Positions 16,901 to 50,701 of a DNA stretch of 64,000 nt are shown one piece after another. Below the pieces are notes generated by a model, which saw only the letters and a program-made list of their open reading frames with translations, was not told the origin of the DNA and made no database searches. This DNA comes from Naegleria gruberi (taxonomy: Eukaryota), in assembly GCA_000004985.1 (NCBI GenBank), contig GG738850.1. The stretch is one strand, 5' to 3'. Within the stretch, counting starts at the first letter, position 1. Each line of letters opens with the position of its first letter. The position numbers and the translations under genes are program-made.

Positions 16901-19900
16901 TTGTTGGCCAAGAAGAGAGAAGAATTGAACGGAACAATTGAACGTTTGAGTAATGGTTTGACCAAGATTAATGAATCTGAAGAAAAGGTCAAGGAATTAT
17001 CAACTGTACTTGCTCAAGAAGCTATCATTGTCGAAGAAAAGAAGAGAGCAACAGAAGAACTCTTGGCTAAGGTTACAAAAGAAAATACCTTCTTAGCCAG
17101 TCAGCAAAAGATTGTCGAAGAGGAAGAAGTTAAACAAAACAAGGTTGTTGATGAAGTTAATGCCCTTGCTAAGGTCTGTACAGATGAATTGAAACAAGCT
17201 GAACCTCTTATTGAAAAGGCTAAGAAGTCATTGGAAGTTTTGAATGTTAAAGATTTCCAAGAATTGAAGTCATTTACCAATCCTCCAGCATTTGTCGACG
17301 TTGTTTTGTCTGCTGTCATGATTTTGAAGGCACAAAGAGGTGTACCAAAGAATGTTGTTTGGGCTGAATCCAAGAAGATGATGAATAATCCAAACCAATT
17401 CATGGTTGAATTAGTTTCTTACAATGCTGAATCCATTCCAAAGATTCCACAAGAAAATATTGATGCTTTGAAGAATAGCAAATATCTTCAACATCCAAAC
17501 TTTGTTCCATCCTTCATTGAAAGCAAGTCAACAGCTGCTGCTGGTTTGTGCGATTGGGTTATTAACGTTGTTGCTTTCTATGATTTGGACAAACAAATTG
17601 AACCAAAGAGACAAAAGTTGTCCCAAGCTATGGAAGAAAAGGAAAAGAACGAATCTCACTTGAAGAAGATTAGTGACAAATTGAACACACTCAGAAAGGC
17701 AAAGGAGCAAGCTGAAACTGAACACAATAATGCTGCTCAAGAATTGGTTAGAATTGAAAAGCAAAGAAAGAAGACTGAAGACAAATTGAATCTTGCTCAC
17801 AGATTGGTCAATGGTTTGTCTGATGAAAAGATCAGATGGGCTGAATCTATCAAGGATTTAAGAGAAAGAGAAAAGACTCTCGTTGGTGATGTATTGTTGG
17901 CCGCTGCTTTCCTTTCATATGTCGGTCCTTTCACCAAAAAGTATAGAAATATGCTTATTGAAGAAAAGTGGATTATCGATCTCAAAGAAAGAAAGATTCC
18001 AACATCAGAAGGTATTGATCCTCTCTTTGGTGTACTTGCTGAAGAAGCTCAAGTTGCCCAATGGAACAACGAAGGTTTGCCATCAGATAGAGTTTCAGTT
18101 GAAAATGGTTCCATTGTTACCAATTGTAAACGTTGGCCATTGTTGATTGATCCACAATTGCAAGGTGTTAAATGGATTAAGAATATGGAAAGTAAGAATA
18201 ACTTGCAAGTCATTCAATTGACAAAGAAGGGATATTTGGAAACTCTTATCCACGCTATTATGAATGGTTATCCTGTTTTGATCGAAAATATTGGAGAAAA
18301 TATTGATCCAATTCTTGATCCATTGCTTGCACAAAGTTATACAAGAAAGGGTAACTCTGTATCTATCAAGCTTGGTAATCGTGAAGTTGATTTTGATCCT
18401 AAATTCAGACTTTACCTTCAAACCAAATTACCAAATCCTCACTATAGACCTGAAATTGTTGCTCAAACAACCTTGTTGAACTTTATGGTCACTGAACAAG
18501 GTTTGGATGATCAATTGCTTGGTACTGTTGTCAATAAGGAAAGACCTGACTTGGAAGAATTGAGACTTTCATATTTGAGACAACTTAGACAATTCAAGAT
18601 TGAACTTAAGGGGTGTGAAGATGCTCTTAGAAATGAATTGTCAAATGCCAAGGGTGATTATTTGGAAAATCACAGACTTATTGATAACTTGGAAGCAACC
18701 AAGAAGAAATCTCAACAAATCAACGTCAGTCTTAAAGAAATTCTTGAAAATAACAAGATGATTGATGAAAGTCGTTCAGTTTATAGAACCGTTTCTACAA
18801 GAGGTTCCATGTTGTATTTCCTTATTGACCAATTGTCAAAGATTGACCACATGTATCAATATTCTCTTGAAGCCTTTATGGTTGTATTTAACAAGGCTCT
18901 TGAAAAGGCTGAACCAGCTGATAATGTAGATAAGAGAGTTGAAAACATTGTCGATAGTATTACAGAAACATTGTTCAGTTACGTTTCTAGAGGTCTCTTT
19001 GAAAGACACAAGCTCATCTTCTCAATGATGTTGTGTATTGAAATTATGAGAAAGAAGGGAGAAATTGAACCAAACCAAATTGACTTTTTACTTAGAGCTC
19101 CTAGAGTTGATGGTGTTGAAAGAAAGGAAACTGTTATTGGTTGGTGTTCTGAATTGAGTTGGGCCTATGTACAAGCACTTACTGCTATTGAAGGTACTAG
19201 TCCAGCATTCTCACTCTTACCAGATGATATGGCTGGTTCTTGGAGAAGATGGAAAGAATGGACTGAATTTGAAAAGCCAGAAGAAAAACCATTACCATTA
19301 GAATGGAAGAACTTGTTACCATTCCAAAAGTTGTTGATTATCAGATGTCTCAGACCTGACAGATTAACTATGGCTGTAACAAACTTTGTAAAGGAGAGAA
19401 TTGGTGAGAAATACGTTAAGGATATTCCTGTTGACCTTGAAGTTTCATATGGTGATGCAGGTCCTACTACACCATTATTCTTTATCCTTTCTCCTGGTGT
19501 TGACCCTGTAAAGGCTGTTGAAAGAATTGGTGAAAAGTTTGGTTTTACAGAATCTGCAGGTAAATTCAAGAACGTTTCTTTGGGTGAAGGTCAAACAGTT
19601 GTTGCCGAAAATGCCCTTCAACATGCTTTCAGAACTGGTGGTTGGGTCATGTTGAACAATCTTCACTTGACTCCTGAATGGTTAGGTGCTTTGGAAAAGA
19701 AATTGGATCAATATGCTGAACAATATGGTAGACAAGAAATGAGAGAAAAGAAGAGAAGAGAAAAGGAAGGATTAAAGAGATCATCCTCTGCTGCTGCTTC
19801 CAGGAGATTAGAAGAGGAAGAACAAGTTGAAGGTGAAAAGGGAGAAGAACCTGAAGTTGGTATTTCTATTGATCCAACCTCCCCACAAGAAGATAAGAAA

Positions 19901-21472
19901 GCAGAAATTCCAGAGGTTGAAGAAGATTCTGAAGAATCAGATGAAGAAGAAGATTTGGGACATCCAGACTTTAGAGTATTCCTTTCAGCTGAACCTTCTA
20001 ACCAAATTCCAATTGGTATCTTGCAAAGATCTATTAAGCTAACTAACGAACCTCCAAGTGGTTTGAGAGCCAACTTGTTCAGATCCCTTATGCAATTTGA
20101 TGATAATATTTGGGAAGGAAGTTCCAAACAAACAGAATTCAAGGGAATCTTGTTCTCACTCTGTTTCTTCCATGCTTGTATTGTTGAAAGAAAGAAGTTC
20201 GGTCCTCAAGGTTGGAACAGAAACTATCCATTTAACCTTGGTGATTTAATTACCTGTATTCACGTCTTGAACAATTACTTGGAAGATAGACCAAAGGTTC
20301 CATGGGAAGATTTGAGATACGTTTTTGGTGAAATTATGTATGGTGGCCACATTACTGATGACTGGGATAGAAAACTCTGTAAGACCTATTTGGAGAAGTT
20401 TATTAGACCTGATGTTGTTGATCAACTTGAGTTGTGTCCAGAATTCCTTTCACCTCCAACCAACTTGACTTATAAGGGATATTTGGAATATGTTGAAAAG
20501 GTTTTGCCACCTGAAAGTCCAGTTGCCTTTGGTTTGCATCCTAACGCTGAAATTGGTTTCAGAACCACTCAAGGTGAAAATATGTTCAACATGATTGCAG
20601 AAATGCAACCTCGTTCAACTTCTGCTGGTGATGGTATGTCCTACCAAGATAAGGTTCAAGCAGGTATTCGTAGAATTTTGGACACTTTACCAGAACCATT
20701 TAACCTTGAAGAAATTGCTGATAGACTTGATGAAGAAAGAACTCCATACCAAAACTCATTCTATCAAGAATGTGAATACATGAATAGATTATTGGTAGAA
20801 TTAGATAGATCACTCAAGGAATTGCAAAGTGGTTTGGATGGTTTGTTGACAATTACTGAAAAGATGACCATTCTCCAAGATTGTATCTATCAAAATAAGG
20901 TTCCAGAAACTTGGTCATCTCTTGCTTATCCATCTCCAAGAAAATTGGACTCATGGTTTGATGACTTGATGCAAAGATATGCACAATTATTGAATTGGAC
21001 AGGAGACTTGCAAACACCAAAGGTTGTTTGGATTTCTGGATTGTTCAATCCTCAATCATTCTTGACTGCCATTATGCAAACTATTGCCAGACAAAAGACT
21101 TGGGCTCTAGATGAAATGACTCTAGTTGCTGAAGTAACAAAGAAGTATGCTGTAGATGAAATTGAACAATCTGCCAGAGAAGGTGCCTATGTTACTGGTA
21201 TGTTCTTGGAAGGTGCTGGTTGGGATCCAAAGAAGAATCACTTGATCGACTCCAAATTGAAGGATTTGCATCCAAGAATGCCAATTATCCACATTAAGGC
21301 TGTTCAAAATGAAAAGTCTGATCCAAACAGCTTCTACGATTGTCCTGTTTACAGAACACCTGATAGAGGTCCTGATTATATTTTCACATGCAAGTTAAAG
21401 ACTCGTGATCATCCAAGTAAATGGATTATGGGTGGTGTTGCTATGATTTTGGATCAAGTGGATACATTGTAA
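7925..21472 (+). CDS. axonemal outer-arm dynein heavy chain (DNAH5/8-like), main exon (~4.5k aa, uninterrupted)
   Basis: Four P-loops typical of axonemal heavy chains: GPAGTGKTETTKDLGRALG...CFDEFNRI (AAA1), GPAGSGKS (AAA2), GTAGTGKTT (AAA3) and GVGGSGKQSLAKLASFI (AAA4, axonemal signature). N-terminal VICFFKKTKVSITPENIGTALIHFEVL aligns to the DNAH5 tail. Stalk/MTBD and C-terminal domains are all in one frame. The track ORF starts at 7937 (internal Met); the frame is open upstream to 7829. Confidence 0.93.
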   Translation: MSISMPSQYSKKVICFFKKTKVSITPENIGTALIHFEVLESPLETLSLISNKLFLPILKNSVEQTSASDQEDEDKVSRDVVTYFQKFIASTYVTSGQVEGKTLLPIPPDDVIQETSSENSDQDKDMIHTLETAVVNWANQIKEVLNKDPESLFVPNYNPGPLDEMNFWNSKYLDLESVAKQLAGEKVTKVIEILKENQSTYIPSFLKMVEEVEIRKHEAFENHRFLKPLRKYFESVNLKSDNHAEYSELPNVFRSIFHLIFMIWKTSTTYNKSERLVVLVRELCNDLIDHSREYIGGREIFNMEFPDAVEKFENTLSTCGLVKKYYFAYKLKVEQECPTNQWRVPPASLFHRLDHFLERCRDILNIFNQGRLFGKLATLQIGGTKGDSLSREVKDIYVHFSEEIAKFKEIQYDALVVEEQKFEEDFYHFKNQIKEFEKKIGSIISKSFEDCSTIHAGVKVIESFEGLLDREAVQQEIVKKQGDLLQTYRKELKRVQQTFTESKTSPIIFHNMPPVTGAIQWAESLLERINGPMNRLISLSKTIFDNSEGKETVKLHSNIVGKIKQYQQQKYAEWAKSVGEISETKLNEMLLKRTDDGMVIVNFDPALVKLLREVNYLQKINTLHEGEPAWSIPQEAIDLFSKNEKYRTQTGSLEYIVNMYNIVQGSLTPVERPLFQTQIQKIDGILERALNSLSWKNDVEIDSFLSEAMNSVKLASTTLSIIKKNTGEIEKALMKWEKNPMFQRKETRTLTMKELDGRNKEMKVTYEKMVKKTGELIVAKLSDCLEVLKGGKQKSSEEQLPEELGCIGVDESAEPWKNFVKHINDIVVDGICKSVIASVRALMDQMNVEYLLKTEQSPFLEISLNLVKKPNSEVHFATFTPSLDEKGENSFVHVVDSWINDFTTVSASIPRLDSSSGDYIKEVKSNTDVISTISQIHESIKTVTVECNKFAEQFIAQKAIYETDQKEFFDEFLEVNFPHGSHGKSHHVELPKFDEQIKKYHNIHEQIKELTACDNAGWLRVDAKPIKQELLKICTSWEKLFSNFLVQNVSERLNDIYQFMNTVESGIDKEVTDGDITTLREVIRYIRDIKSETESENGIFQPLQEIVVLLSQYGIELAPNLVHTLEQAPVKWDGLYKRSLVRRTELSDLQDKESQKVKEQGLQFGKRVLKFQEEFRDMAAFFYKSGSQDAYKSIDKWQVLLVDMEKEATKLRELQDLFEITVSEYNALKTCREEVMLLKSLWDIISHILSLFKDWMKTSFKKVDVDALVEESKKLKKTIQNFNTKARAWDSYSGLNNAVNNMLTSLPLVQDLRNPAMRRRHWDELLEETHKKGAIDPDDNFNLDQLLDLGLHSYVDTVQTIVDKASKELIIEKALTKVESVWSTLNFDFGYDGELKCSIMGAVEDIVEILQDNQVQLQNMSTMKYVEFFIESLTKWQIALSTIDSIITEWVGVQKKWQNLYPIFMMSKDIKEKLHEDAVRFAEADTEWRNFMEVAKAVPKIVEACTEPTIRTKLDTSKDVLEILQHIEEKLELCQKSLSEYLETKCKAFPRFYFIKAGDVIDILSKGSFPKLVMKHMSKIVEAVETLTFDENSDLTNGMISKEDEIITFPDKYECKGPVEDWLNGVLNTIVSSLTHTLGDAHAAYVEQQRDQWVFQFPAQIVIVASRVWFTSEVNSAFERQEEGNKNALKDYYNQLKDQLAKLTTLVQGELTPGDRKKIITLITVDVHNRDIVLKLIEEKAESSQVFTWQSQLRYSWDDTKGCTINIADAEFKYGYEYIGNCGCLVITPLTDRCYITLTQSLRLIMGGAPAGPAGTGKTETTKDLGRALGIQVYVFNCTEQMNPASLGNIFKGLSMTGTWGCFDEFNRIRVGVLSVVATQFKSILDAIKAQKKEFLFEQETISLIPTCGVFITMNPGYKGRTELPENLKALFRPCAMIVPDFMNICEIMLASEGFINAKELAKKFVTLYRLNKELLSKQDHYDWGLRAVKSVLVIAGGLKRAEPQVSEDRILMRALRDTNLAKLSRDDIEIFRGLIRDLFPKIEIEAKSDPELVKAVKQATEEKRLQTGENDIFIGKVVQFKELLDVRHSVFVLGPAGSGKSCVWKTLSKAFEIQGRRTWAHVLNPKSVTSGELYGYTHPVSKDWKDGLLSNTMREMYETKTPLPKWIVLDGDIDAEWIESMNTVMDDNKVLTLANNERIPLSPSMRMLFEIDHLRNATPATVSRAGILFLNETDIGWNPFKESWIETRSVEKEKQNLDRLFYTYAPHILFWLKKHNHIIPRQDISMIQTLCYLLEGLITPESCPPGCSHEIYEYYFAFACIWAFGGALEDDERVLFNAMFKKDFPQVKFPENATVFDYFVVTEGETVRLEPWATKVKEYNHDFELPFNEIVVSTADTARLTYLMDLLADRRRPVLLVGTAGTGKTTIVKGKLRSLDEETLYTTINFNSNTDAESFQNILEQSITKKAGKMYGPPGRKKLIYFIDDLNMPNPDKYGTQSAVEFLRQHMDYGFWYDRNNMGVKEVTNVQYLAAMNPKAGSFTVTGRLQRHFGMFACTFPADADLKTIYSQIISAHVESFDRRVQTISTKLVDATIKLHKEVAKFFLPTAVKFHYQFNLREISNIFQGLCRSTKEHYSDPVHMIRLWMHEAFRVFSDRMTEQDDVNKFSAMATKISKDVLDCEIQDGQSLLFSSFVVESDNGTGVYCEANDFNKLKLVLEKKLEEYNSSRSIMNLELFKQAIWHVCRISRILSNPRGNALLVGVGGSGKQSLAKLASFINNYEISQITVTPSYKIIDFKKDLLELYKKSGEKDMKISFILTDSQIFDQKQLVFINDFLSSGFIPELFTPDDVEKSIQAVQPAVKYAGKDHNDKKVCWDFFLEKVKKNLHLVLCFSPVGEQLRVWCRKFPAIMNCSVIDWFHEWPRDALISVAYRFLTDADMNLGDDEMIKNISEHMAFAHESVSMACKSYQHIERRYNYTTPKSFLELIEVYKTLLAKKREELNGTIERLSNGLTKINESEEKVKELSTVLAQEAIIVEEKKRATEELLAKVTKENTFLASQQKIVEEEEVKQNKVVDEVNALAKVCTDELKQAEPLIEKAKKSLEVLNVKDFQELKSFTNPPAFVDVVLSAVMILKAQRGVPKNVVWAESKKMMNNPNQFMVELVSYNAESIPKIPQENIDALKNSKYLQHPNFVPSFIESKSTAAAGLCDWVINVVAFYDLDKQIEPKRQKLSQAMEEKEKNESHLKKISDKLNTLRKAKEQAETEHNNAAQELVRIEKQRKKTEDKLNLAHRLVNGLSDEKIRWAESIKDLREREKTLVGDVLLAAAFLSYVGPFTKKYRNMLIEEKWIIDLKERKIPTSEGIDPLFGVLAEEAQVAQWNNEGLPSDRVSVENGSIVTNCKRWPLLIDPQLQGVKWIKNMESKNNLQVIQLTKKGYLETLIHAIMNGYPVLIENIGENIDPILDPLLAQSYTRKGNSVSIKLGNREVDFDPKFRLYLQTKLPNPHYRPEIVAQTTLLNFMVTEQGLDDQLLGTVVNKERPDLEELRLSYLRQLRQFKIELKGCEDALRNELSNAKGDYLENHRLIDNLEATKKKSQQINVSLKEILENNKMIDESRSVYRTVSTRGSMLYFLIDQLSKIDHMYQYSLEAFMVVFNKALEKAEPADNVDKRVENIVDSITETLFSYVSRGLFERHKLIFSMMLCIEIMRKKGEIEPNQIDFLLRAPRVDGVERKETVIGWCSELSWAYVQALTAIEGTSPAFSLLPDDMAGSWRRWKEWTEFEKPEEKPLPLEWKNLLPFQKLLIIRCLRPDRLTMAVTNFVKERIGEKYVKDIPVDLEVSYGDAGPTTPLFFILSPGVDPVKAVERIGEKFGFTESAGKFKNVSLGEGQTVVAENALQHAFRTGGWVMLNNLHLTPEWLGALEKKLDQYAEQYGRQEMREKKRREKEGLKRSSSAAASRRLEEEEQVEGEKGEEPEVGISIDPTSPQEDKKAEIPEVEEDSEESDEEEDLGHPDFRVFLSAEPSNQIPIGILQRSIKLTNEPPSGLRANLFRSLMQFDDNIWEGSSKQTEFKGILFSLCFFHACIVERKKFGPQGWNRNYPFNLGDLITCIHVLNNYLEDRPKVPWEDLRYVFGEIMYGGHITDDWDRKLCKTYLEKFIRPDVVDQLELCPEFLSPPTNLTYKGYLEYVEKVLPPESPVAFGLHPNAEIGFRTTQGENMFNMIAEMQPRSTSAGDGMSYQDKVQAGIRRILDTLPEPFNLEEIADRLDEERTPYQNSFYQECEYMNRLLVELDRSLKELQSGLDGLLTITEKMTILQDCIYQNKVPETWSSLAYPSPRKLDSWFDDLMQRYAQLLNWTGDLQTPKVVWISGLFNPQSFLTAIMQTIARQKTWALDEMTLVAEVTKKYAVDEIEQSAREGAYVTGMFLEGAGWDPKKNHLIDSKLKDLHPRMPIIHIKAVQNEKSDPNSFYDCPVYRTPDRGPDYIFTCKLKTRDHPSKWIMGGVAMILDQVDTL

Positions 21473-21596
21473 ATAAACAATTTATTATTTAATTAAAAAC
21501 GTTTTTCTAATTTTTGAGGAGTTTTTATGTTCTAAACTTTGAATACTTATGGTATATACGAGTAGCCGAATTTAAATTATTAAGATTAAAAAGGTG

Positions 21597-21667
21597 TAGG
21601 AAGACAGGGAATCGAACCCTGATCTTAGGAACCACAATCCCATGTTCTACCACTGAACTATCTCCCT
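21597..21667 (-). tRNA. tRNA-His (anticodon GTG)
   Basis: 71-nt cloverleaf read by hand: acceptor AGGGAGA/TCTTCCT with one G-U pair, D arm GTTC-AGTGGTA-GAAC, anticodon arm TGGGA-TTGTGGT-TCCTA (U33, GTG, G37), T arm CAGGG-TTCGATT-CCCTG, discriminator A. Followed by a T-run (CACCTTTTT). Identical to the copy at 48613..48683. Confidence 0.85.
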
Positions 21668-21739: not shown

Positions 21740-22145
21740 AGGTGTTTCCGAAAATATTCCTTCAATAAAAAAAAAAATTGTTGTGATGAAATACTTTTCT
21801 GTTCCTTTGCTCTCCTTTCCGTCTGCTAATAGTGAACCAATATGTGCTAATCTTTTATATCGTAAATAATATTATTGTCTAGTTGTTTTTCAAATTTTGA
21901 TCAATAGATACTAGCTTTCACAGAGAAAATTTAGAGTTTTACATTTAAAAATTAAATTAGATTTTTCACTATTTGATCCTCCTTGATCCCACGATCGGAA
22001 GAGTTTCTAAATTCAAAATAATGTAGACTGTGTGTTGGTTACTTTTCGTCATGCTTTGTCATGCTTTAATTGTGATTTTACCTTCAGTTCCACAAGAACG
22101 AAAATTGGCAAACAAAGAACAACAACAACAAACAATCACAAAAAA

Positions 22146-24044
22146 ATGCAAAGAAAATTTTGTTTTGTTTGTGGAGTCTTGACAGGTGTTTTTGCAGCAA
22201 AATTCTACACAGTTAAGAATGGATTTGTTGGTAAAATACCTATTCATCATGCATGCCACGATGGTATAATTTGTGGAAAACATTATAACATATTCAGGAG
22301 ACAATTTAATAATTTAGATGAGAACTTTACAAATATTGAATTTGGAACAAATGAAACAGTACAACATAATCACTCTAACAAAACTCAATCATATCAATTT
22401 CACATTCATAATGAAAGTAACATTTTACCCTTAGACCCACAGTCATTTAAAAGTTTAGAAAATCAAAATATCGGCCTTACCATTATTCCAACTGACCACT
22501 TGATTCGTATTGTGAAACCAGTACAGTGTAAAATCTGTGAGAGCACAAATATACATTTAAGAGAAATTACTAAAAATGGATTTGAACAGATATTCCGTTT
22601 TACTTGTTTGGCTTGTAATACGGTATTTGTTTTTAGAACATGTCCAAGGAATCTTAAATTGAATAGACATATTATTCAATCATTTGAACTCTCGAACTCT
22701 ACCTATGAATCATTTAAAACATTTACAACCCTTGTCGGATTGCCAATAATTAATAAGAAATCATATTATCAAGCAACAAACAAGTTATGGAGCAGTAGTA
22801 GTCAAGTATTAAATCAAGAAATGGACAAGGAATTGGAAAAGATTGCAAATCAGAAAATGAAACAAGTGCTTGGTCCTTTAATTTCTGCATTTGAACTGGG
22901 AAGAGAAGTTCCGGCATTGATTTACTCCTTCATTCATGATGCAATATTTTTGGATATATCAGTTGATGCAAGATATTCATCTAGGAGAAATGTTTACGAA
23001 TGTACTCTTGTGGTATTCGAAACAAAGGCAAAAAAAACAATTGAACGATCACACGTTATCAAGAAAAGAGCATCTAATAGAAAAAGTGCCTTACAATGGT
23101 TTATGGGAGCCTCTAAATTAATGGAGCCAGAAGCATGTCGTTTAGCAATTACATCTTTGAAACACAAGTCATTTCCAGTAATGGGTTATGGTATTTTACA
23201 TTTCAAAATTGGCTCTTTTGTTCATGACAAAGACTCAACTGTGGCAGCAGTCATCAAGAAATTAGAACCAACAGCATTAGAAAAGTTAGATCCAAATCAT
23301 GTAATCAAAAATCTGAGCAAGGAAGTAGAAGAAAAAGCACCCCGTATTGCCAGTATTATTGTATCATCCTTTAGGAAAGCTCTAAAATTAGCCAACACCA
23401 CCACTAATTCAAATGAGAAACTCCAAGCATTATTGAAAGCTTATCCACAACATTTACAAAATAACCATTCTCTGTGCGATTCAGGTTGTCCACACACAAT
23501 TAAACCAGAAAAATTGATCACTAAAGAGGAAGCACAAGTTGTTAAAGAAATATTTGACAAACGAATCAAATATAGTCACAAATTTTGTGATATTGCATGC
23601 AATAGCCAAAACAATGAGTCCATACATAGTACTATTTGTCATACAACACCAAAGACATTAGATTTCAGTCGAAATTATTGTGGAAGAGCTGATCTGGCAA
23701 TAGGTGAACGATTGCTTGGAAAATTTGCACAATTAAGAAAAATTCAAAGATTTATTGGTAGTCTCTTCGTGATTCCAAAAGAGCAGGCCATCAAGTTAGA
23801 TACTCAATATCATCAGGATAAAATAAGGAAACAGTCTAAAGCTTATAAGGAAAGAAGAGTGGAGCTTCGGAAAACAAAACTTAAGGTAAAAGAATCTCCA
23901 CAGCCAAAGGGAACAATTGGAAGTTGCACATGTTCGAAGGGTTCGACATGTACAAAAGCTTGTCCATGCAGAAAAGCCGGGAAATCATGTACTTCCAAAT
24001 GCTCTTGTTCCCTTACCAAATGTTCAAACAACAAAAAAGTTTGA
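22146..24044 (+). CDS. putative transposase-like protein: N-terminal zinc-ribbon motifs plus C-terminal tesmin-like CXC cysteine-rich tail
   Basis: Track ORF is 22032..24044; first ATG is at 22146 (MQRKFCFVCG...). Motifs CFVCG...HHACHDGIICGKH and CKICES-x19-CLACN (CxxC...CxxC ribbon). Central segment FIHDAIFLDISVDARYSSRRNVYECTLVVFETKAKKTIERSHV loosely resembles the first-D region of ISXO2/IS1595-Merlin DDE transposases. C-terminal CTCSKGSTCTKACPCRKAGKSCTSKCSCSLTKC. No cellular family recognised. Flanked by the inverted repeats above. Confidence 0.5.
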   Translation: MQRKFCFVCGVLTGVFAAKFYTVKNGFVGKIPIHHACHDGIICGKHYNIFRRQFNNLDENFTNIEFGTNETVQHNHSNKTQSYQFHIHNESNILPLDPQSFKSLENQNIGLTIIPTDHLIRIVKPVQCKICESTNIHLREITKNGFEQIFRFTCLACNTVFVFRTCPRNLKLNRHIIQSFELSNSTYESFKTFTTLVGLPIINKKSYYQATNKLWSSSSQVLNQEMDKELEKIANQKMKQVLGPLISAFELGREVPALIYSFIHDAIFLDISVDARYSSRRNVYECTLVVFETKAKKTIERSHVIKKRASNRKSALQWFMGASKLMEPEACRLAITSLKHKSFPVMGYGILHFKIGSFVHDKDSTVAAVIKKLEPTALEKLDPNHVIKNLSKEVEEKAPRIASIIVSSFRKALKLANTTTNSNEKLQALLKAYPQHLQNNHSLCDSGCPHTIKPEKLITKEEAQVVKEIFDKRIKYSHKFCDIACNSQNNESIHSTICHTTPKTLDFSRNYCGRADLAIGERLLGKFAQLRKIQRFIGSLFVIPKEQAIKLDTQYHQDKIRKQSKAYKERRVELRKTKLKVKESPQPKGTIGSCTCSKGSTCTKACPCRKAGKSCTSKCSCSLTKCSNNKKV

Positions 24045-45643: not shown

Positions 45644-46135
45644 ATGTCTGAAACCAAGCAAGTCGAATTAACATCCAAGGATAAAGTTTCCTTCAAGGTT
45701 GATAGAGATGTCATCTTGATGTCCGGTCTCGTTAAGGATATGTTAGAAGAAGGTGATGAAGATGAAACACCAATCATCCCAATTCCAAACGTTGATTCCA
45801 AGCCATTGCAAAAGGTTATTGAATATTGTCAATATCACCACAAGGAACCAGCCCAAGAAATTGAAAAGCCATTGAAGGGTAAGATTGAAGATGTTATCTG
45901 TGATTGGGACAAGAAGTTCTTGGAAATTGATCAATCTCTCTTGATTGAACTTATCATGGCTGCCAACTATTTGAATATTAAGGATCTTTTGGATTTGACC
46001 TGTGCTAAGGTTGCCTCCATGATCAAGGGCAAGTCACCAGAACAAATTAGAGAAATGTTCGGTATTGAAAATGATTTCACCCCAGAAGAGGAAGCCAAAA
46101 TTAGAGAAGAAAACAAGTGGTGCGAAGAAGCATAA
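45644..46135 (+). CDS. SKP1: Skp1 (SCF ubiquitin ligase adaptor), 163 aa, single exon
   Basis: True ATG. Full-length Skp1 hallmarks: IEYCQYHH, the dimerisation C-terminus DLLDLTCAKVASMIKGKSPEQIREMFGIENDFTPEEEAKIREENKWCEE. Confidence 0.95.
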   Translation: MSETKQVELTSKDKVSFKVDRDVILMSGLVKDMLEEGDEDETPIIPIPNVDSKPLQKVIEYCQYHHKEPAQEIEKPLKGKIEDVICDWDKKFLEIDQSLLIELIMAANYLNIKDLLDLTCAKVASMIKGKSPEQIREMFGIENDFTPEEEAKIREENKWCEEA

Positions 46136-46343
46136 ATTGTATTATAAATTTGTTAATTTTAATTTTTATTTAATTTTTATTTAATGTTATTTAATTTTTA
46201 TTTCAATATTATTAAATTATTGTTGGAATTAGTGAAATTGGGTAGCATGCTGAGATAATTTAAAATTGCTAGGATTAATAAAGTATGAATATTGACAGTT
46301 GACAATGATTTTAAAATCTCAAATATTATTTGTTTTTATTGGA

Positions 46344-48170
46344 TTAGTCACTCTCTTCCTCTTCTTCTCTTTTCCTCTTGTTCTTTTCATTCCTATTTTC
46401 ACTGACCAGTTTGTGAAATTCTTGCTTGATAGAGACTGTGTTTGCATTTGGTTTCAACAATGAGCGAGTCAATGAAAGCATGTTTGCAATCTTTAACAAA
46501 TTGATATCTTTGGTAGAGAGAGAACCCAATTTGTTTCTCAAATATTTAACCAAACTGTTTCTGTCAGCAGAGCCATAATTTTGCTCAGTGATCATGGTGG
46601 GCTCAATTTTGATACTTCTTCTATTTGAACCAGATGGAATGAATGAGTGATCAACACTAGTATCTATGGCACCTTTGGCTTTAAATAATTTAACTTCGGT
46701 TTTCAACAAGCCAAAATCAATTCTGAAAAACTTTTCAGACTCTAACCGAACAATTTTCAAAATTTTCCAACACTCTACAATGACACGATAGCCTCCTGTA
46801 TATCTGGGAATCATGTTACCAATTCTTGCAATGTGATCAGAAATGTAACAACAATCTGGAAAATCAATAATTGTTGGTGATTTGGTATCGTAAAAACCTT
46901 CTTCTTGTCCAAGTAACCAATTCAAGCATTCACCATATTCAATATTGCCTCTAATCTTTTCTAAAAGCTCAGGACATTCCTTGTACATTGGATTTGGTGT
47001 GTTAGCTTTAACTATTTTCCAAGTTGAATCCATAATTCTTCTTTTAGTAATGATTGGATTCTTATTCTTATAAGGAGCTAATGGAGTAAGCTTCTCCCAA
47101 AATTCATTTGCAGTAATTTCATCACCATTGACTTTTCTTGGCAATGGATATTGGGACTGGGCAATCTTTTCCAATTTCATATCAGCATTTCTTGTTGGAT
47201 TGCTTGCCAATTCACTACTATTACCATTGATTGCCTTAGGTGTAGTTGGTAGAGCATTTTGAACACCCAATTGAATGGCAGCAATCAAGTCTTGGATTGT
47301 CATGTTATTCAACATGAGAGGCTGTGCTGGTGTAATAGATGATTCTGTAGAGGTGAGGAGAGTTCCTTCATCTTGTTTGACAATTCCTTCATCTTGTTTA
47401 ACATCCTCCTTGTAACAAGTGAGCTCCTTGTACAAATCGAGTGATTTTTGTCTATCAAAATGTACAAACAATCTATAGATCATTACTAATCTATCATTGG
47501 TGGATATTTCCATGTCAAATCCTAATTGCTCTGACTTGGCATCAATCCACTTGTTCAAAAAGGATGTAAATACCTTTCCAAATAGAATATTTTCATCAGT
47601 AGAGCTATATTGAACAATTGAATCGTAAATATAGGTAGGCAAATGAAACTTGATTCTTCTAAAGAATGAGTCACTTGTTACATTATCCAATGGAGGTTCT
47701 TCTCTCAATACATTGATAAATTTCTCCTCTGTGTAGTCATTATCTTCAGCAGTTTTAATACCCATGAGTATACTGTTAGGGTCAATTAAATGTAGGATTT
47801 TCTTGTCAACATAACGACGATAGACATTGTTACCTGGTGTTAACTTCCATCCATACCAACGAATGATTAGTTCAAACTCGTCAACCTTTAAACTTTGGTG
47901 TTGGATCATGATTTGCACAGCAGCCCATGTAGCTCCAGATCTTCTCATACTATAAGGAACAATATGTTGCTGAATTCCAACAAATAATCTAGAATTGGTA
48001 ATTTCTTTAGCAAATTGACTCAAATTGTGAGGTACAAAACCATTTCCAATAGAGGAGAATAAATGCATTTCCAAACATTCTTCCTTAATAGAAAAGTCAC
48101 AATTTTTCAAACATGACTCCAAGTTACCACTTTTGAAAATTCCTCTCAAAGCCAAATATTCTAAAAGCAT
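46344..48170 (-). CDS. protein with Crypton/DIRS-type tyrosine-recombinase-like N-terminal motifs (possible domesticated YR-derived gene or Crypton remnant), 608 aa
   Basis: True ATG at 48170. Residues about 70-125 read PYSMRRSGATWAAVQIMIQHQSLKVDEFELIIRWYGWKLTPGNNVYRRYV. These resemble eukaryotic YR boxes (G)HSxRRGGAT...LGRWKS...YIR, with H to Y at the first position. ALRG at residues 7-10 may be the box-I Arg. No family recognised for the rest. Internal tandem repeat KQDEGIVKQDEGT. Confidence 0.55.
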   Translation of the reverse strand: MLLEYLALRGIFKSGNLESCLKNCDFSIKEECLEMHLFSSIGNGFVPHNLSQFAKEITNSRLFVGIQQHIVPYSMRRSGATWAAVQIMIQHQSLKVDEFELIIRWYGWKLTPGNNVYRRYVDKKILHLIDPNSILMGIKTAEDNDYTEEKFINVLREEPPLDNVTSDSFFRRIKFHLPTYIYDSIVQYSSTDENILFGKVFTSFLNKWIDAKSEQLGFDMEISTNDRLVMIYRLFVHFDRQKSLDLYKELTCYKEDVKQDEGIVKQDEGTLLTSTESSITPAQPLMLNNMTIQDLIAAIQLGVQNALPTTPKAINGNSSELASNPTRNADMKLEKIAQSQYPLPRKVNGDEITANEFWEKLTPLAPYKNKNPIITKRRIMDSTWKIVKANTPNPMYKECPELLEKIRGNIEYGECLNWLLGQEEGFYDTKSPTIIDFPDCCYISDHIARIGNMIPRYTGGYRVIVECWKILKIVRLESEKFFRIDFGLLKTEVKLFKAKGAIDTSVDHSFIPSGSNRRSIKIEPTMITEQNYGSADRNSLVKYLRNKLGSLSTKDINLLKIANMLSLTRSLLKPNANTVSIKQEFHKLVSENRNEKNKRKREEEEESD

Positions 48171-48306
48171 AAAAGATAAAGCAATTGTTATTCAAACCCC
48201 AATCCACAAAGTTTAGATTCACTCTCTTTCAATCATTGATAAAATGAATTTGTTAGCTTTTATTTTGAATTTTATTACCAGTTCTCTATTCCACACAAAA
48301 AGATAC

Positions 48307-48426
48307 AAGACTACAGCACCACAGGTTCCCAAGTTGTCTCCAACCTCAGTACTGATGTGGTTCGACGATGCTTAACTTCTCAAATCGGACGGGATGAGGT
48401 GCATTCATCGTGATATGGCCGTAGCC
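48307..48426 (-). rRNA. 5S ribosomal RNA (~120 nt), dispersed copy
   Basis: Reverse complement reads GGCTACGGCCATATCACGATGAATGCACCTCATCCCGTCCGATTTGAGAAGTTAAGCATCGTCGAACCACATCAGTACTGAGGTTGGAGACAACTTGGGAACCTGTGGTGCTGTAGTC. It matches the universal 5S consensus (GCCTACGGCCATACC...CCCGTCCGATCTGCGAAGTTAAGC...GTACTGG...GGGAATACC..GGTGCTGTAGGC). Terminal helix pairs. T-rich stretch (TCTTTTG) downstream. Confidence 0.85.
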
Positions 48427-48612
48427 AATCATATTATCAAAATAATGTTAGTGAACTATTAATATTTCTAAATTGCTTAACTTATCTATCACAATGAGTG
48501 AAATTCTCAAAAAAAATGTTATGTCTAAATCATAATTAAACAGATCTCGTTTTTCATTATTAACTTTAACTTGTACTGATTATAAAATAAACTAATTTAC
48601 ATCAATTAGAGA

Positions 48613-48683
48613 AGGGAGATAGTTCAGTGGTAGAACATGGGATTGTGGTTCCTAAGATCAGGGTTCGATTCCCTGTCTTCCTA
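48613..48683 (+). tRNA. tRNA-His (anticodon GTG), second identical copy
   Basis: 71/71 identical to complement(21597..21667). Followed by CC + TTTTTT. Confidence 0.85.
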
Positions 48684-48685
48684 CA

Positions 48686-48691
48686 CCTTTT
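48686..48691 (+). terminator. Pol III terminator T-run (TTTTTT) after tRNA-His
   Basis: Six consecutive T residues starting 3 nt after the discriminator base. Confidence 0.4.
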
Positions 48692-48772
48692 TTAACAACA
48701 GAAAGAAAAGATTTAACTTAAGGATTATTGTTGACGGACAGATATTTACATTTGAGATTTATCGGGTACAAT

Positions 48773-50701
48773 TCAATTTTCAGTAATTACTTCACGATAG
48801 GATTGAGCCACTTCTAATGTATTATCTTTTGGAACAAATTTGATTCTTGGATGGTGGGGAATTATGTATTTCGAAAATAATTCACTATTATTCGAATCAT
48901 ACTCAAAATACTCTAAACTTGGTGGCAAATCTAACTTTGGATAAATATCTTGAACAAAATCAGAACTATCACTAAAATTAAAATGCCACACTAGCTTTTT
49001 GAGCTGTCTGAATTTCTTGATTGATTTTACAATATCCATATCATTTTGTGCATATGTATTCGTTCTTATAATTAATTCTTTGAGATTGGGTGATCTTTTT
49101 GCTAGATTTCTAATCACCCTCCCACTAATAGCACCATGACTCGTATTTATAGATTCTACATCAGTCAGTAATGCCTTCTCAACATCTCTATTTTCAATAT
49201 AGAAATGTTCAGAGCCATAGGTTAGAGGTTGCATCATGTAATAAACTGTTCTTTTTCCAGGTTTTTTCAAATAATAATTGAAAAAGGAAGAGTTCAAAGT
49301 GTGGCCAAGTATTTGCATACCATTAACTCTTTCATGGCTTGGCATGAATAATTTTTCTTTCAATGATGATGTGTGATTGTGTTTCTCTAACTGTCTGTCA
49401 GCATTATTAATTAAATTTCTAAATGAAATTTCAAGAATGTCATCATTGACCACACTTTTCATGGCAATTTCTCTCCAATATTTACAAGTTCTTGAAATGA
49501 GCATTCTATTATAGACAGGTAGGAATGAAAATATTAATTCTGTAGAGTTATCATCCAATAGGCGGTAACTAAATGCTGAAATTATTTTAGTATTAGGATT
49601 GAGAGCTTTGGCTTTTTGAATATATACATCACGTTCCTTTTTCATGTCTTTTCTTCCATAGACATAGGCAATCATTTTAGCACATTCATCACTATTAATA
49701 ATACTCATTGATTGTAAAAAATCATCCAATGCCAAATCAACTTCATGTGAATAATAGTATGAAAGTCCTCTATTATAAATATAATGGCCCAAATTTGGAT
49801 GATCCTTTCCAATTTCAATAGCCTTATTGTAACATTCAATAGAATCTCTGTAATAGGTTGAAAAATAATATGAAATTCCAGCTCTGAAATATAGCTCTTC
49901 AAGAGATATTATTGAGGAAGGAATTTTAACCTTCTCTGTCTGTTCTTCCTGGGGAGCAGTGACTTCCTGTACTTGTTTCCCCAACTTGCTCTTTATCAAG
50001 TTTCCAGCATGTTTGAAATAGGATTTGGTTTGTTCATGAAATTCATTCAAATTCTCCATCACCTTCTCAGCAGTATGTTTCATAACATTTTGAATTTCAA
50101 AAACCTTCTTCTCCACCTCATTGGATTTGCTATCGTTGGCTTCTTTCAACTCTATTGCCTTTTTGAATGCATGAGCAGATTCCAAATAATCTCCAGTCAC
50201 ATAGAGAAGAAACCCTTCCAAATATTTGACAATATAGGTCTCTTTCAGCGTGTAATCCAAATAGATAGCAAATTTGAGATCGTTCATTGCCTTTTCATAC
50301 TTATTAGAGGCACATCTCACCAAAGTTCTTTGCAAGTATAAAATTGCATCTTCAGATGATAATACAACTTTTGGATCTGATGAGTTTTCCATTGGTGCTG
50401 AATTTTCTATTGCTGAATTTTCATTCTTTTCATCGGCTGTAATTAATTTCGCATCGTCACCATCAACAATTTTCATCTTGTTATTCAACATCTTCTCGGC
50501 CTTATCTTGCTTTCTATATAAAATCTTCTCCTTCAATTCTCTTCTTTTAATCTTCCAGTTGGAATCAATCTTTTGATTGTTTTCTCTAATTTTACTATCC
50601 ATCGAGGAGAAGGTACTATGAATGAAATTGTATGCAGAGCCACCCAAGATGAGCGGGAAAAGAAGGATCAGAACAGGACCAGAAGGTACACTTCCACACA
50701 T
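48773..50701 (-). CDS. TPR-repeat protein with an F-box-like segment and C-terminal LRR-like region; N-terminal hydrophobic anchor (642 aa)
   Basis: True ATG at 50701. TPR-like repeats (AMNDLKFAIYLDYTLKETYIVKYLEGFLLYVTGDYLESAHAFKKAIEL; YNKAIEIGKDHPNLGHYIYNRGLSYYY). F-box-like ELIFSFLPVYNRMLISRTCKYWREIA. Confidence 0.6.
   Translation of the reverse strand: MCGSVPSGPVLILLFPLILGGSAYNFIHSTFSSMDSKIRENNQKIDSNWKIKRRELKEKILYRKQDKAEKMLNNKMKIVDGDDAKLITADEKNENSAIENSAPMENSSDPKVVLSSEDAILYLQRTLVRCASNKYEKAMNDLKFAIYLDYTLKETYIVKYLEGFLLYVTGDYLESAHAFKKAIELKEANDSKSNEVEKKVFEIQNVMKHTAEKVMENLNEFHEQTKSYFKHAGNLIKSKLGKQVQEVTAPQEEQTEKVKIPSSIISLEELYFRAGISYYFSTYYRDSIECYNKAIEIGKDHPNLGHYIYNRGLSYYYSHEVDLALDDFLQSMSIINSDECAKMIAYVYGRKDMKKERDVYIQKAKALNPNTKIISAFSYRLLDDNSTELIFSFLPVYNRMLISRTCKYWREIAMKSVVNDDILEISFRNLINNADRQLEKHNHTSSLKEKLFMPSHERVNGMQILGHTLNSSFFNYYLKKPGKRTVYYMMQPLTYGSEHFYIENRDVEKALLTDVESINTSHGAISGRVIRNLAKRSPNLKELIIRTNTYAQNDMDIVKSIKKFRQLKKLVWHFNFSDSSDFVQDIYPKLDLPPSLEYFEYDSNNSELFSKYIIPHHPRIKFVPKDNTLEVAQSYREVITEN

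What the first reader, a model, noticed from the sequence alone, without database searches (positions are those of the whole stretch)
46344..48700. Crypton/DIRS-like tyrosine-recombinase motifs in a 608-aa ORF sitting beside a dispersed 5S rRNA gene and the second tRNA-His copy
The N-terminal ~125 residues carry SMRRSGATWAA ... IRWYGW ... VYRRYV. This matches the HSxRRGGAT / GRWKS...YIR boxes of eukaryotic Crypton/DIRS/Ngaro tyrosine recombinases, with H to Y at the first position. Such motifs occur either in active Crypton transposons or in host genes domesticated from them (DUF3504-type domains). The gene lies in the cluster [YR-like gene][5S rRNA][tRNA-His], mirroring the other tRNA-His copy which abuts the inverted-repeat element. 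The window therefore shows two independent associations of mobile-element-like genes with Pol III genes.
Basis: partly seen in the sequence, partly recalled or inferred. Interest (0 to 1): 0.68.

Follow-up and report, generated by a model that had tools for sequence, protein, structure and literature searches.

The report
Truncated tyrosine-recombinase transposon gene in Naegleria
The 608-aa ORF is the surviving back half of a larger recombinase gene from a rare, previously undescribed Crypton-like mobile-element family in Naegleria amoebae; this copy has lost the front half it needs to cut DNA, so it is a relic and not a working enzyme.

Summary
The window is Naegleria gruberi NEG-M. It holds ORF 46344-48170(-), 608 aa, then a complete 5S rRNA gene 137 bp upstream (48308-48426, -) and tRNA-His (48613-48684, +).

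The window copy starts after the beta-sheet. It lacks the core-binding domain, box-I Arg and hairpin Lys, and keeps only YxxR, GW and Y. There is no upstream exon.

N. lovaniensis has two tandem copies under purifying selection (dN/dS 0.24). An uncultured relative has a frameshifted copy. The three loci share no synteny and encode no reverse transcriptase.

Best reading: a 5'-truncated remnant of a new Crypton-like family. The link to Pol III genes is real in this window but is not seen in relatives.

The parts
46344..48170 (-). ORF608: the 5'-truncated copy of the family's YR gene. It corresponds to residues 502 to the end of a roughly 1,100-aa full-length protein.
47796..48170 (-). Remnant of the YR catalytic domain (ORF608 residues 1-125). 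It begins in the helix that follows the three-stranded beta-sheet. It keeps YxxR, GW and Y, and lacks box-I Arg and the hairpin Lys.
47925..47954 (-). Box II, YSMRRSGATW (Y73-x-x-R76), with Tyr in place of the usual His.
47847..47861 (-). RWYGW. G107-W108 is conserved and is the candidate equivalent of His/Trp-III (Cre W315).
47811..47822 (-). YRRY. Y120 is conserved in all three Naegleria-type homologues and is the candidate nucleophile.
46347..47795 (-). Conserved C-terminal extension of about 480 aa, of unknown fold. Its blocks include ELPLP, FW, KRR, EYG..WL and FPDCCYIS, a small helical module (residues ~520-575, pLDDT 75-86) and a basic tail. It is 30-45% identical to the homologues.
48171..48194 (-). 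Truncation junction. Protein homology to EFC35499.1 stops at the codon before the ATG. An in-frame stop lies at 48192-48194. There is no AG acceptor and no assembly gap.
48308..48426 (-). Complete 5S rRNA gene, 137 bp upstream of the ORF's ATG. It is a neighbour and not shown to be part of the element.
48613..48684 (+). tRNA-His(GTG), a neighbour.
46144..46171 (+). Left copy of an imperfect 28-nt direct repeat (22 of 28 matches) that brackets the ORF. It starts 9 nt after the Skp1 stop codon. Possible recombination-site remnant; weak evidence.
48244..48271 (+). Right copy of the same repeat, 74 nt upstream of the ATG and 37 nt from the 3' end of the 5S gene.
45644..46135 (+). Skp1 (exact match to XP_002681295.1), convergent with ORF608. 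It limits the 3' boundary of the element to 46136-46343.

Best explanation
ORF608 is a 5'-truncated, non-autonomous copy of the single gene of a low-copy, YR-only (Crypton-like) element family. The family is so far seen only in Naegleria and a few metagenomic relatives. The full-length protein is about 1,100-1,300 aa and has three parts: a low-complexity N-terminus, a Cre-like two-domain tyrosine recombinase, and a conserved C-terminal extension of about 480 aa and unknown function. In EFC35499.1 numbering the candidate active site is R440 (GSRP), K478 (EHDK, in the beta2-beta3 hairpin), Y574-x-x-R577, W609 and Y621. By analogy with Cryptons, the intact protein would excise the element as a circle and reinsert it by site-specific recombination; this step is inferred and not shown. 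The window copy begins at residue 502. It has lost the DNA-binding core domain and two of the six catalytic residues, so it cannot recombine DNA on its own. Its reading frame is still open because the copy is young: it is identical to the full-length copy over the 120 overlapping residues. The adjacent 5S rRNA and tRNA-His genes are neighbours of the truncated end and are not demonstrated targets.
For: Shown:
- ORF608 residues 1-120 are identical to residues 502-621 of N. gruberi EFC35499.1. Its first 500 residues are encoded nowhere in the window.
- Homologues in N. lovaniensis and in a metagenome contig code continuously across the junction, so the break is not an intron.
- Stops lie upstream, there is no AG acceptor, and the window has no N runs.
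- The secondary-structure order and the motif positions match the R-K-H-R-H/W-Y layout.
- No reverse transcriptase or any other Pfam domain was found in the 621-aa and 1,007-aa proteins; the only large ORF in the ~4.7-kb N. lovaniensis unit (1,315 aa) is a near-identical copy of the 1,007-aa one with an unscanned extra N-terminus.
- Signs of repetition and mobility: at least two copies in N. gruberi; two tandem copies in N. lovaniensis, one of them 5'-truncated; a copy with two frameshifts reproduced in two independent metagenomes whose contigs break at the same base; and no synteny among the three loci.
Against: - The structure model is low-confidence (pLDDT 55, pTM 0.44, 7 sequences).
- No sequence profile links the family to any YR family. 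hhalign against Cre gives only a 31-column match at 2% probability.
- Element termini are not defined, and no excision or empty site has been seen.
- Copy number in N. gruberi could not be measured.
- The two N. lovaniensis copies diverged under purifying selection (dN/dS 0.24). In the uncultured relative the same C-terminal portion stays open while the N-terminal half is frameshifted. Both observations would also fit a host-retained function for the part that survives here.
Confidence: 0.6

Rival explanations
1. ORF608 is a functional, host-retained (domesticated) or regulatory truncated protein. On this view the C-terminal half of the YR domain plus the 480-aa extension forms a selected unit, for example a DNA-binding or multimerising protein, or a trans-inhibitor or partner of the full-length recombinase.
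For: - The 608-codon frame is intact, whereas the other two frames carry 36 and 69 stops.
- The same portion stays open over about 490 codons in an uncultured relative whose upstream YR half carries two real frameshifts. The surviving ORF there starts only about 20 codons upstream of the ORF608 start.
- In N. lovaniensis the C-terminal extension has dN/dS 0.26 between the paralogues.
- Crypton YRs have been domesticated repeatedly (PMC3212892).
Against: - Complete identity over the 120 overlapping residues with a full-length copy means the open frame needs no selection to explain it.
- The locus is not syntenic with either homologue locus.
- The exact ORF608 sequence is absent from the protein collection that does hold the neighbouring Skp1 gene, and no annotated N. 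gruberi protein covers residues 122-608.
- Known domesticated YRs lose catalytic residues and keep the whole fold. Here the fold is cut in half.
Confidence: 0.2
2. The truncation is an assembly or haplotype artefact. On this view the real locus, or the other haplotype, carries the full-length gene, and the 4,461-bp scaffold with EFC35499.1 is its unplaced 5' part.
For: - EFC35499.1 is 'partial', sits on a 4.5-kb scaffold, and ends inside the region that is identical to ORF608.
- NEG-M was assembled from Sanger shotgun reads (PMC8040595).
Against: - The window is continuous, with no N runs, from ORF608 through unique sequence into a complete 5S gene, tRNA-His and an F-box/TPR gene.
- Similarity to EFC35499.1 ends abruptly at the ATG, with stops upstream. 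A collapse artefact would not create a new unique junction.
Confidence: 0.1
3. The element is targeted to Pol III genes (5S or tRNA), as some Starship YR elements target 5S rDNA and Dictyostelium retroelements target tRNA genes. On this view the [YR][5S][tRNA-His] cluster reflects that targeting.
For: - The ORF lies 137 bp from a 5S gene and 442 bp from tRNA-His.
- The other tRNA-His is 365 bp from a Mutator-like transposase ORF.
- Starship 'Voyager' inserts into 5S rDNA; this is from my own knowledge and was not checked here.
Against: - The end of the element that faces the 5S gene is a truncation breakpoint, not a terminus.
- The 5S gene is intact.
- In N. lovaniensis the nearest 5S/tRNA pair is 6.5 kb from the tandem copies. 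In the uncultured relative none was found in locus L001, which covers 10 kb on the upstream side of the gene; the contig ends about 56 nt past the called gene end.
- 5S flanks are not conserved between the two species.
- My own rough estimate puts the chance that both TE ORFs neighbour a Pol III locus in this window at about 0.05.
Confidence: 0.07

Closest known systems
Crypton DNA transposons (Goodwin 2003; Kojima & Jurka 2011, PMC3212892)
   Same: The element codes for a tyrosine recombinase and has no reverse transcriptase. It has no terminal inverted or long terminal repeats and occurs at low copy number. A lineage-specific conserved C-terminal region follows the YR, as in CryptonS and CryptonF. 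The box motifs resemble HSxRRGGA / GRW / Y.
   Different: No sequence-profile similarity to DUF3504, GCR1_C or Phage_integrase. Box-II His is replaced by Tyr. The protein is much longer (~1,100-1,300 aa). The host lineage (Heterolobosea) is not among those reported. The short 4-6-bp terminal direct repeats are not demonstrated. The window copy is only the 3' half of the gene.
Crypton-derived host genes: DUF3504 proteins (QRICH1, ZMYM2-4, KCTD1) and Ndc10/Gcr1
   Different: Those proteins keep the whole fold, lose catalytic residues, and are syntenic single-copy genes. Here the full-length relatives keep the candidate catalytic residues, the loci are not syntenic, and the window copy lacks half of the fold.
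Cre and Flp recombinases
   Same: Both the N-terminal helical domain and the catalytic domain align (about 350 columns with Cre). Trp sits at the His-III position, as in Cre W315 (my own knowledge).
   Different: 11-16% sequence identity. This is a eukaryotic chromosomal gene with long extra N- and C-terminal regions.
DIRS1-like, Ngaro, PAT and VIPER YR retrotransposons (DIRS1-like fragments are reported in N. gruberi; PMC3266345)
   Same: They encode a eukaryotic YR with similar box motifs.
   Different: No RT/RNase H anywhere in the proteins or in the 4.7-kb unit. No split or inverted terminal repeats.
Telomere resolvases (ResT/TelK), from my own knowledge and not tested here
   Same: They use a YxxR box II in place of HxxR and remain catalytically active. 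This shows that the His-to-Tyr change need not inactivate the enzyme.
   Different: Prokaryotic or phage hairpin-forming enzymes; no relationship has been shown.

Membership tests
Tyrosine recombinase / topoisomerase IB superfamily (fold) | Catalytic-domain fold: helices, a three-stranded beta-sheet with a Lys hairpin, then C-terminal helices that carry HxxR, H/W and Y. | tested here: met
Tyrosine recombinase (catalytically competent) | Complete R-K-H-R-H/W-Y active site in one polypeptide. | tested here: not met
   ORF608 starts after the beta-sheet, so box-I Arg and the hairpin Lys are absent. The full-length relatives have R, K, Y(for H)xxR, W and Y.
Phage_integrase (PF00589) / DUF3504 (PF12012) / GCR1_C (PF12550) / DUF3435 Starship captain | Match to the Pfam profile. 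| tested here: not met
   No hit at E<=10 for ORF608 and EFC35499.1, or at E<=1 for P0005, P0007 and P0008; P0009 was not scanned against Pfam. NCBIfam, which included P0009, and PDB sequence searches are also negative.
Crypton | YR is the only enzymatic domain; no reverse transcriptase. | tested here: met
   No RT/RNase H or any other Pfam domain in the 621-aa and 1,007-aa proteins. The 4.7-kb N. lovaniensis unit holds one large ORF.
Crypton | No TIRs or LTRs; short (4-6 bp) direct repeats at the termini. | tested here: inconclusive
   No inverted or long terminal repeats around the copies. An imperfect 28-nt direct repeat brackets ORF608, with p about 0.004-0.13 depending on the scoring. The termini are not defined.
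Crypton | Mobility: multiple dispersed copies, insertion polymorphism, circular intermediate. | tested here: inconclusive
   At least two copies in N. gruberi, non-syntenic loci in three genomes, and truncated or frameshifted copies. However, the N. lovaniensis pair is tandem and carries a duplicated piece of the flanking gene. The N. gruberi genome was not searchable.
Crypton | Phylogenetic placement within CryptonF, S, A or I. | not testable with these tools
   No reference Crypton sequences are available, and sequence similarity is below the detection limit.
DIRS / Ngaro / PAT / VIPER | RT/RNase H ORF in the same element. | tested here: not met
Domesticated YR gene | Orthologous and syntenic across species, single copy, catalytic residues lost. 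| tested here: not met
   No synteny, multiple copies, and candidate catalytic residues conserved in full-length members.

The most novel reading that the evidence does not exclude
The family may be a eukaryotic site-specific integrative element that inserts at the 3' end of housekeeping genes and carries a surrogate 3' end for the target, as bacterial integrases do at tRNA genes. In N. lovaniensis each tandem copy is followed by the last 9 codons plus stop of ribosomal protein S23. The orphan fragment and the live gene differ at 7 of 30 nt, and all seven differences are synonymous. This is far more synonymous divergence than in the YR genes themselves (dS 0.11). In the window the ORF is likewise convergent with Skp1 and is bracketed by a 28-nt imperfect direct repeat that starts 9 nt after the Skp1 stop codon. 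On this reading ORF608 would be an internally deleted, possibly trans-mobilisable derivative.
Probability: 0.1. Interest if true: 0.8.

Novelty: new member of a known kind. Interest (0 to 1): 0.38.

Why it matters
It adds a deep-branching, profile-invisible tyrosine-recombinase element family to Heterolobosea. Open-literature searches turned up no Crypton report for this lineage. The family has a natural His-to-Tyr box-II variant and a large conserved C-terminal module of unknown function. For genome annotation, it explains an unannotated 608-aa ORF in the N. gruberi reference and links it to the 'predicted protein' EFC35499.1. The window locus itself is a truncated relic, so its direct biological importance is modest. 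The rpS23 and Skp1 3'-end observations give a concrete, testable lead on how such elements might choose their targets.

Tried and rejected
- Pfam, NCBIfam and PDB sequence or profile searches of ORF608, EFC35499.1, P0005, P0007 and P0009 gave no YR or other informative hit.
- The AlphaFold model of the whole ORF608 was too poor to use (pLDDT 43.5). Foldseek found nothing with E<1, so the C-terminal extension remains unassigned.
- The afdb50 fold library was unavailable.
- An upstream exon was rejected: tblastn finds no trace of the N-terminal 500 residues in the window.
- A larger duplication around the two tRNA-His genes was rejected: only the tRNA plus about 10 nt on each side is shared.
- Conserved linkage to the 5S gene was rejected.
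- A duplicated Skp1 3' fragment was not found in the window.
- Scans of the JGI metagenome collection (two) and IMG/VR (one) found no further relatives.
- Exact-product look-ups of EFC35499.1, ORF608 and Skp1 returned no N. gruberi DNA. The paralogous scaffold and the genome-wide copy number therefore could not be examined.
Full report
**What is there**

The window is Naegleria gruberi NEG-M. The Skp1 ORF at 45644-46135 (+) is an exact match to XP_002681295.1 on a 707-kb scaffold. The flagged ORF is real: 46344-48170 (-), 608 aa. On the same strand, 137 bp upstream of its ATG, lies a complete 5S rRNA gene at 48308-48426 (103 bits against a gathering score of 38). Beyond that is tRNA-His(GTG) at 48613-48684 (+). 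An F-box/TPR gene follows at 48773-50701 (-). The window has no N runs.

**The ORF is the back half of a longer gene**

Pfam finds nothing in ORF608. A search of 5.8 billion proteins gave two hits:
- P0001, from a metagenome, 42% identical over 66% of the query.
- P0002, which is N. gruberi EFC35499.1 / XP_002668243.1: 'predicted protein, partial', 621 aa, on a 4,461-bp scaffold.

P0002 residues 502-621 are identical to ORF608 residues 1-120. Its first 500 residues are encoded nowhere in the 64-kb window (tblastn).

Upstream of the ORF608 ATG the similarity stops at once. In-frame stops lie 8, 13 and 15 codons upstream, and there is no AG dinucleotide in the last ~20 nt to serve as a splice acceptor. 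Both other homologues code straight across this point, so the break is not an intron.

**Is it a tyrosine recombinase?**

By sequence profile, no. Pfam (E<=10 for ORF608 and P0002, E<=1 for P0005, P0007 and P0008), NCBIfam and HMMER against all PDB sequences give nothing relevant for ORF608, P0002 or the relatives; P0009 was scanned only against NCBIfam.

An exhaustive HMMER scan of 1.84 billion representatives with P0002 residues 270-621 found only five other proteins:
- P0005, 1,007 aa, 36% identical.
- Two fragments of the metagenome homologue.
- P0007 and P0008, a second and more distant family. P0009 was added.

The alignment shows invariant G-x-R ('GSRP'), a conserved 'EHDK', 'PYS[MF]RRSGATW', 'YGW[KR]' and 'R[RK]Y'.

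I modelled P0002 270-621 with AlphaFold on a 7-sequence alignment. The model is weak (pLDDT 55, pTM 0.44). Its topology is a four-helix N-terminal domain, then helices, then a three-stranded sheet, then helices.

The conserved motifs fall where the YR active site lies:
- R440 sits after the long helix (box I).
- K478 sits in the beta2-beta3 loop.
- Y574-x-x-R577 sits at the start of a helix (box II).
- W609 sits at the end of the next helix.
- Y621 sits on the last helix.

Two refinements apply. The conserved Trp is the one in 'GW', and the conserved Tyr is Y120 of ORF608, because N. lovaniensis has IRYYGW and IARKY. From my own knowledge, telomere resolvases use YxxR in box II and remain active, so the His-to-Tyr change need not kill activity. 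This was not tested here.

**What the window copy retains**

ORF608 starts in the helix just after the sheet, at model residue 233. [quoted passage not shown] It keeps Y73xxR76, W108 and Y120. It also keeps the whole C-terminal extension of about 480 aa, which is 30-45% identical to the homologues.

Neither Pfam nor a model of ORF608 (pLDDT 43.5) assigned that extension to any fold. Only residues ~520-600 fold confidently, as a small helical module ahead of a basic tail.

**Relatives and evidence for mobility**

P0005 comes from GCA_003324165.2, which is the N. lovaniensis ATCC 30569 PacBio assembly (PMC8040595). That locus has two tandem copies:
- B, a 1,315-aa ORF at L003 13816-17763.
- A, at 9834-13364, 5'-truncated, with a further 310-bp deletion and a 1,007-aa ORF.

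The two are 95.6% identical over 3.1 kb. Between them dN/dS is 0.24 (61 synonymous against 60 non-synonymous differences over 611 and 2,392 sites). For the YR part alone it is 0.08. The protein has therefore been under purifying selection.

The metagenome homologue (L001) has two frameshifts bracketing the box-I and Lys segment, but an open frame over the part that corresponds to ORF608. An independent JGI contig (L005) is 99.96% identical to it, carries the same frameshifts and ends at the same base. The frameshifts are therefore real, and the shared end suggests a repeat boundary.

The three loci share no synteny apart from the gene itself. No reverse transcriptase or other enzyme domain was found in the scanned proteins, and the 4.7-kb unit holds only that one large ORF. 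This sets the family apart from the DIRS1-like fragments reported in N. gruberi (PMC3266345).

A YR-only element, without TIRs or LTRs, at low copy and with a lineage-specific C-terminal region, fits the Crypton description (PMC3212892). Literature searches for Crypton or tyrosine recombinase together with Naegleria found no prior report.

**The Pol III neighbourhood**

The 670-aa ORF at 22032-24044 (+), 365 bp from the other tRNA-His, is a Mutator-like transposase (PF20700, E 3e-17). Four observations argue against targeting:
- The 5S-facing end of ORF608 is a truncation breakpoint, and the 5S gene is intact.
- In N. lovaniensis the nearest 5S/tRNA-Glu pair is 6.5 kb from the tandem copies. 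In L001, which covers the 10 kb on the upstream side of the gene (the contig ends about 56 nt past the called gene end), no Pol III gene was found.
- 5S flanks are not conserved between the species.
- The two tRNA-His genes share only the tRNA plus about 10 nt on each side.

I treat the association as unproven. It may simply reflect the fact that the few permissive intergenic spaces of a compact genome collect both kinds of gene.

**An unexplained lead**

In N. lovaniensis the homology between copies A and B runs past the stop codon, through about 130 bp, and into the last 9 codons plus stop of the convergent ribosomal protein S23 gene. The intact gene lies at 18008-18445 (-). An orphan fragment 'KGKKEKPRN*' lies at 13338-13364 (-) after copy A. 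The two 30-nt pieces differ at 7 positions, and all seven are synonymous. Codon choice is close to randomised, even though the YR genes have dS of only 0.11. Upstream of the orphan fragment the rpS23 similarity decays immediately.

Two explanations remain open:
- The element carries an attP-like surrogate of its target's 3' end, as bacterial integrative elements do.
- There was an old [YR + rpS23] segmental duplication, followed by gene conversion of the YR genes and later loss of one rpS23 copy.

In the window, ORF608 is likewise convergent with a housekeeping gene (Skp1). It is bracketed by an imperfect 28-nt direct repeat at 46144-46171 and 48244-48271. The repeat matches at 22 of 28 positions. 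Only 2 of 500 shuffles of the two flanks reach that value. With general local scoring, however, p is 0.017 to 0.13. No second Skp1 3' fragment is present. This lead is suggestive only.

**Verdict**

The YR interpretation is supported at fold level but not by sequence profiles. ORF608 is most likely a young, 5'-truncated, catalytically incomplete remnant of a new Crypton-like family (confidence about 0.6).

The rival readings are a retained or domesticated truncated protein (about 0.2), an assembly or haplotype artefact (about 0.1) and Pol III-targeted insertion (about 0.07).

Novelty: a new member of a known kind. Interest is moderate to low for the locus itself, and higher if the lead on gene-3'-end targeting proves true.

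Noticed in passing
window 22032-24044 (+): This 670-aa ORF is a Mutator-like transposase (Pfam PF20700, E 3.2e-17) with a Cys-rich C-terminal tail. It starts 365 bp from tRNA-His 21596-21667 (-), just past the end of a 4,511-aa ORF (7937-21472; dynein-heavy-chain-like by eye, not scanned).
   Followed up: partly
L003 13338-13364 (-) and 18008-18445 (-): In N. lovaniensis, an orphan copy of the last 9 codons plus stop of ribosomal protein S23 follows YR copy A, and the intact rpS23 gene follows copy B. The two 30-nt ends differ at 7 nt, and all seven differences are synonymous. This could be an att-like surrogate 3' end or the relic of an old segmental duplication.
   Followed up: partly
L003 9834-18037: N. 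lovaniensis carries two tandem copies of the YR gene. One is 5'-truncated and has an extra 310-bp deletion. They are 95.6% identical, with dN/dS 0.24 overall and 0.08 in the YR domain.
   Followed up: yes
L001 9104-11289 and L005 1-2427: An uncultured relative, seen in ENA ERZ27315067 and JGI 3300002220, has the same gene with two frameshifts bracketing the box-I and Lys segment. The two independent contigs are 99.96% identical and end at the same base inside the gene, which suggests a repeat boundary.
   Followed up: yes
window 48308-48684; L003 2857-3459: In both Naegleria species a dispersed 5S rRNA gene sits within 200-400 bp of a tRNA gene: His in N. gruberi and Glu in N. lovaniensis. Only the 5S sequence itself is conserved. 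5S/tRNA pairs may be a general feature of these genomes.
   Followed up: partly
window 45644-46135 (+) and 48773-50701 (-): The YR remnant and the Pol III genes lie between a Skp1 gene and a gene for an F-box plus TPR protein. These are two SCF ubiquitin-ligase components located close together.
   Followed up: no
window 47358-47399 (-): A 21-nt tandem duplication inside ORF608 encodes (I/V)VKQDEG twice, in the poorly conserved linker of the C-terminal extension.
   Followed up: no
L002 1542-3143; L004 624-2756: There is a second, more distant YR-like family: P0009 (533 aa, GCA_037189345.1), P0007 (710 aa, Logan SRR31579443) and P0008. Members have GLRG, KEK, TRSCR(T/S)G and VGWK motifs. The source organisms were not identified.
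   Followed up: no
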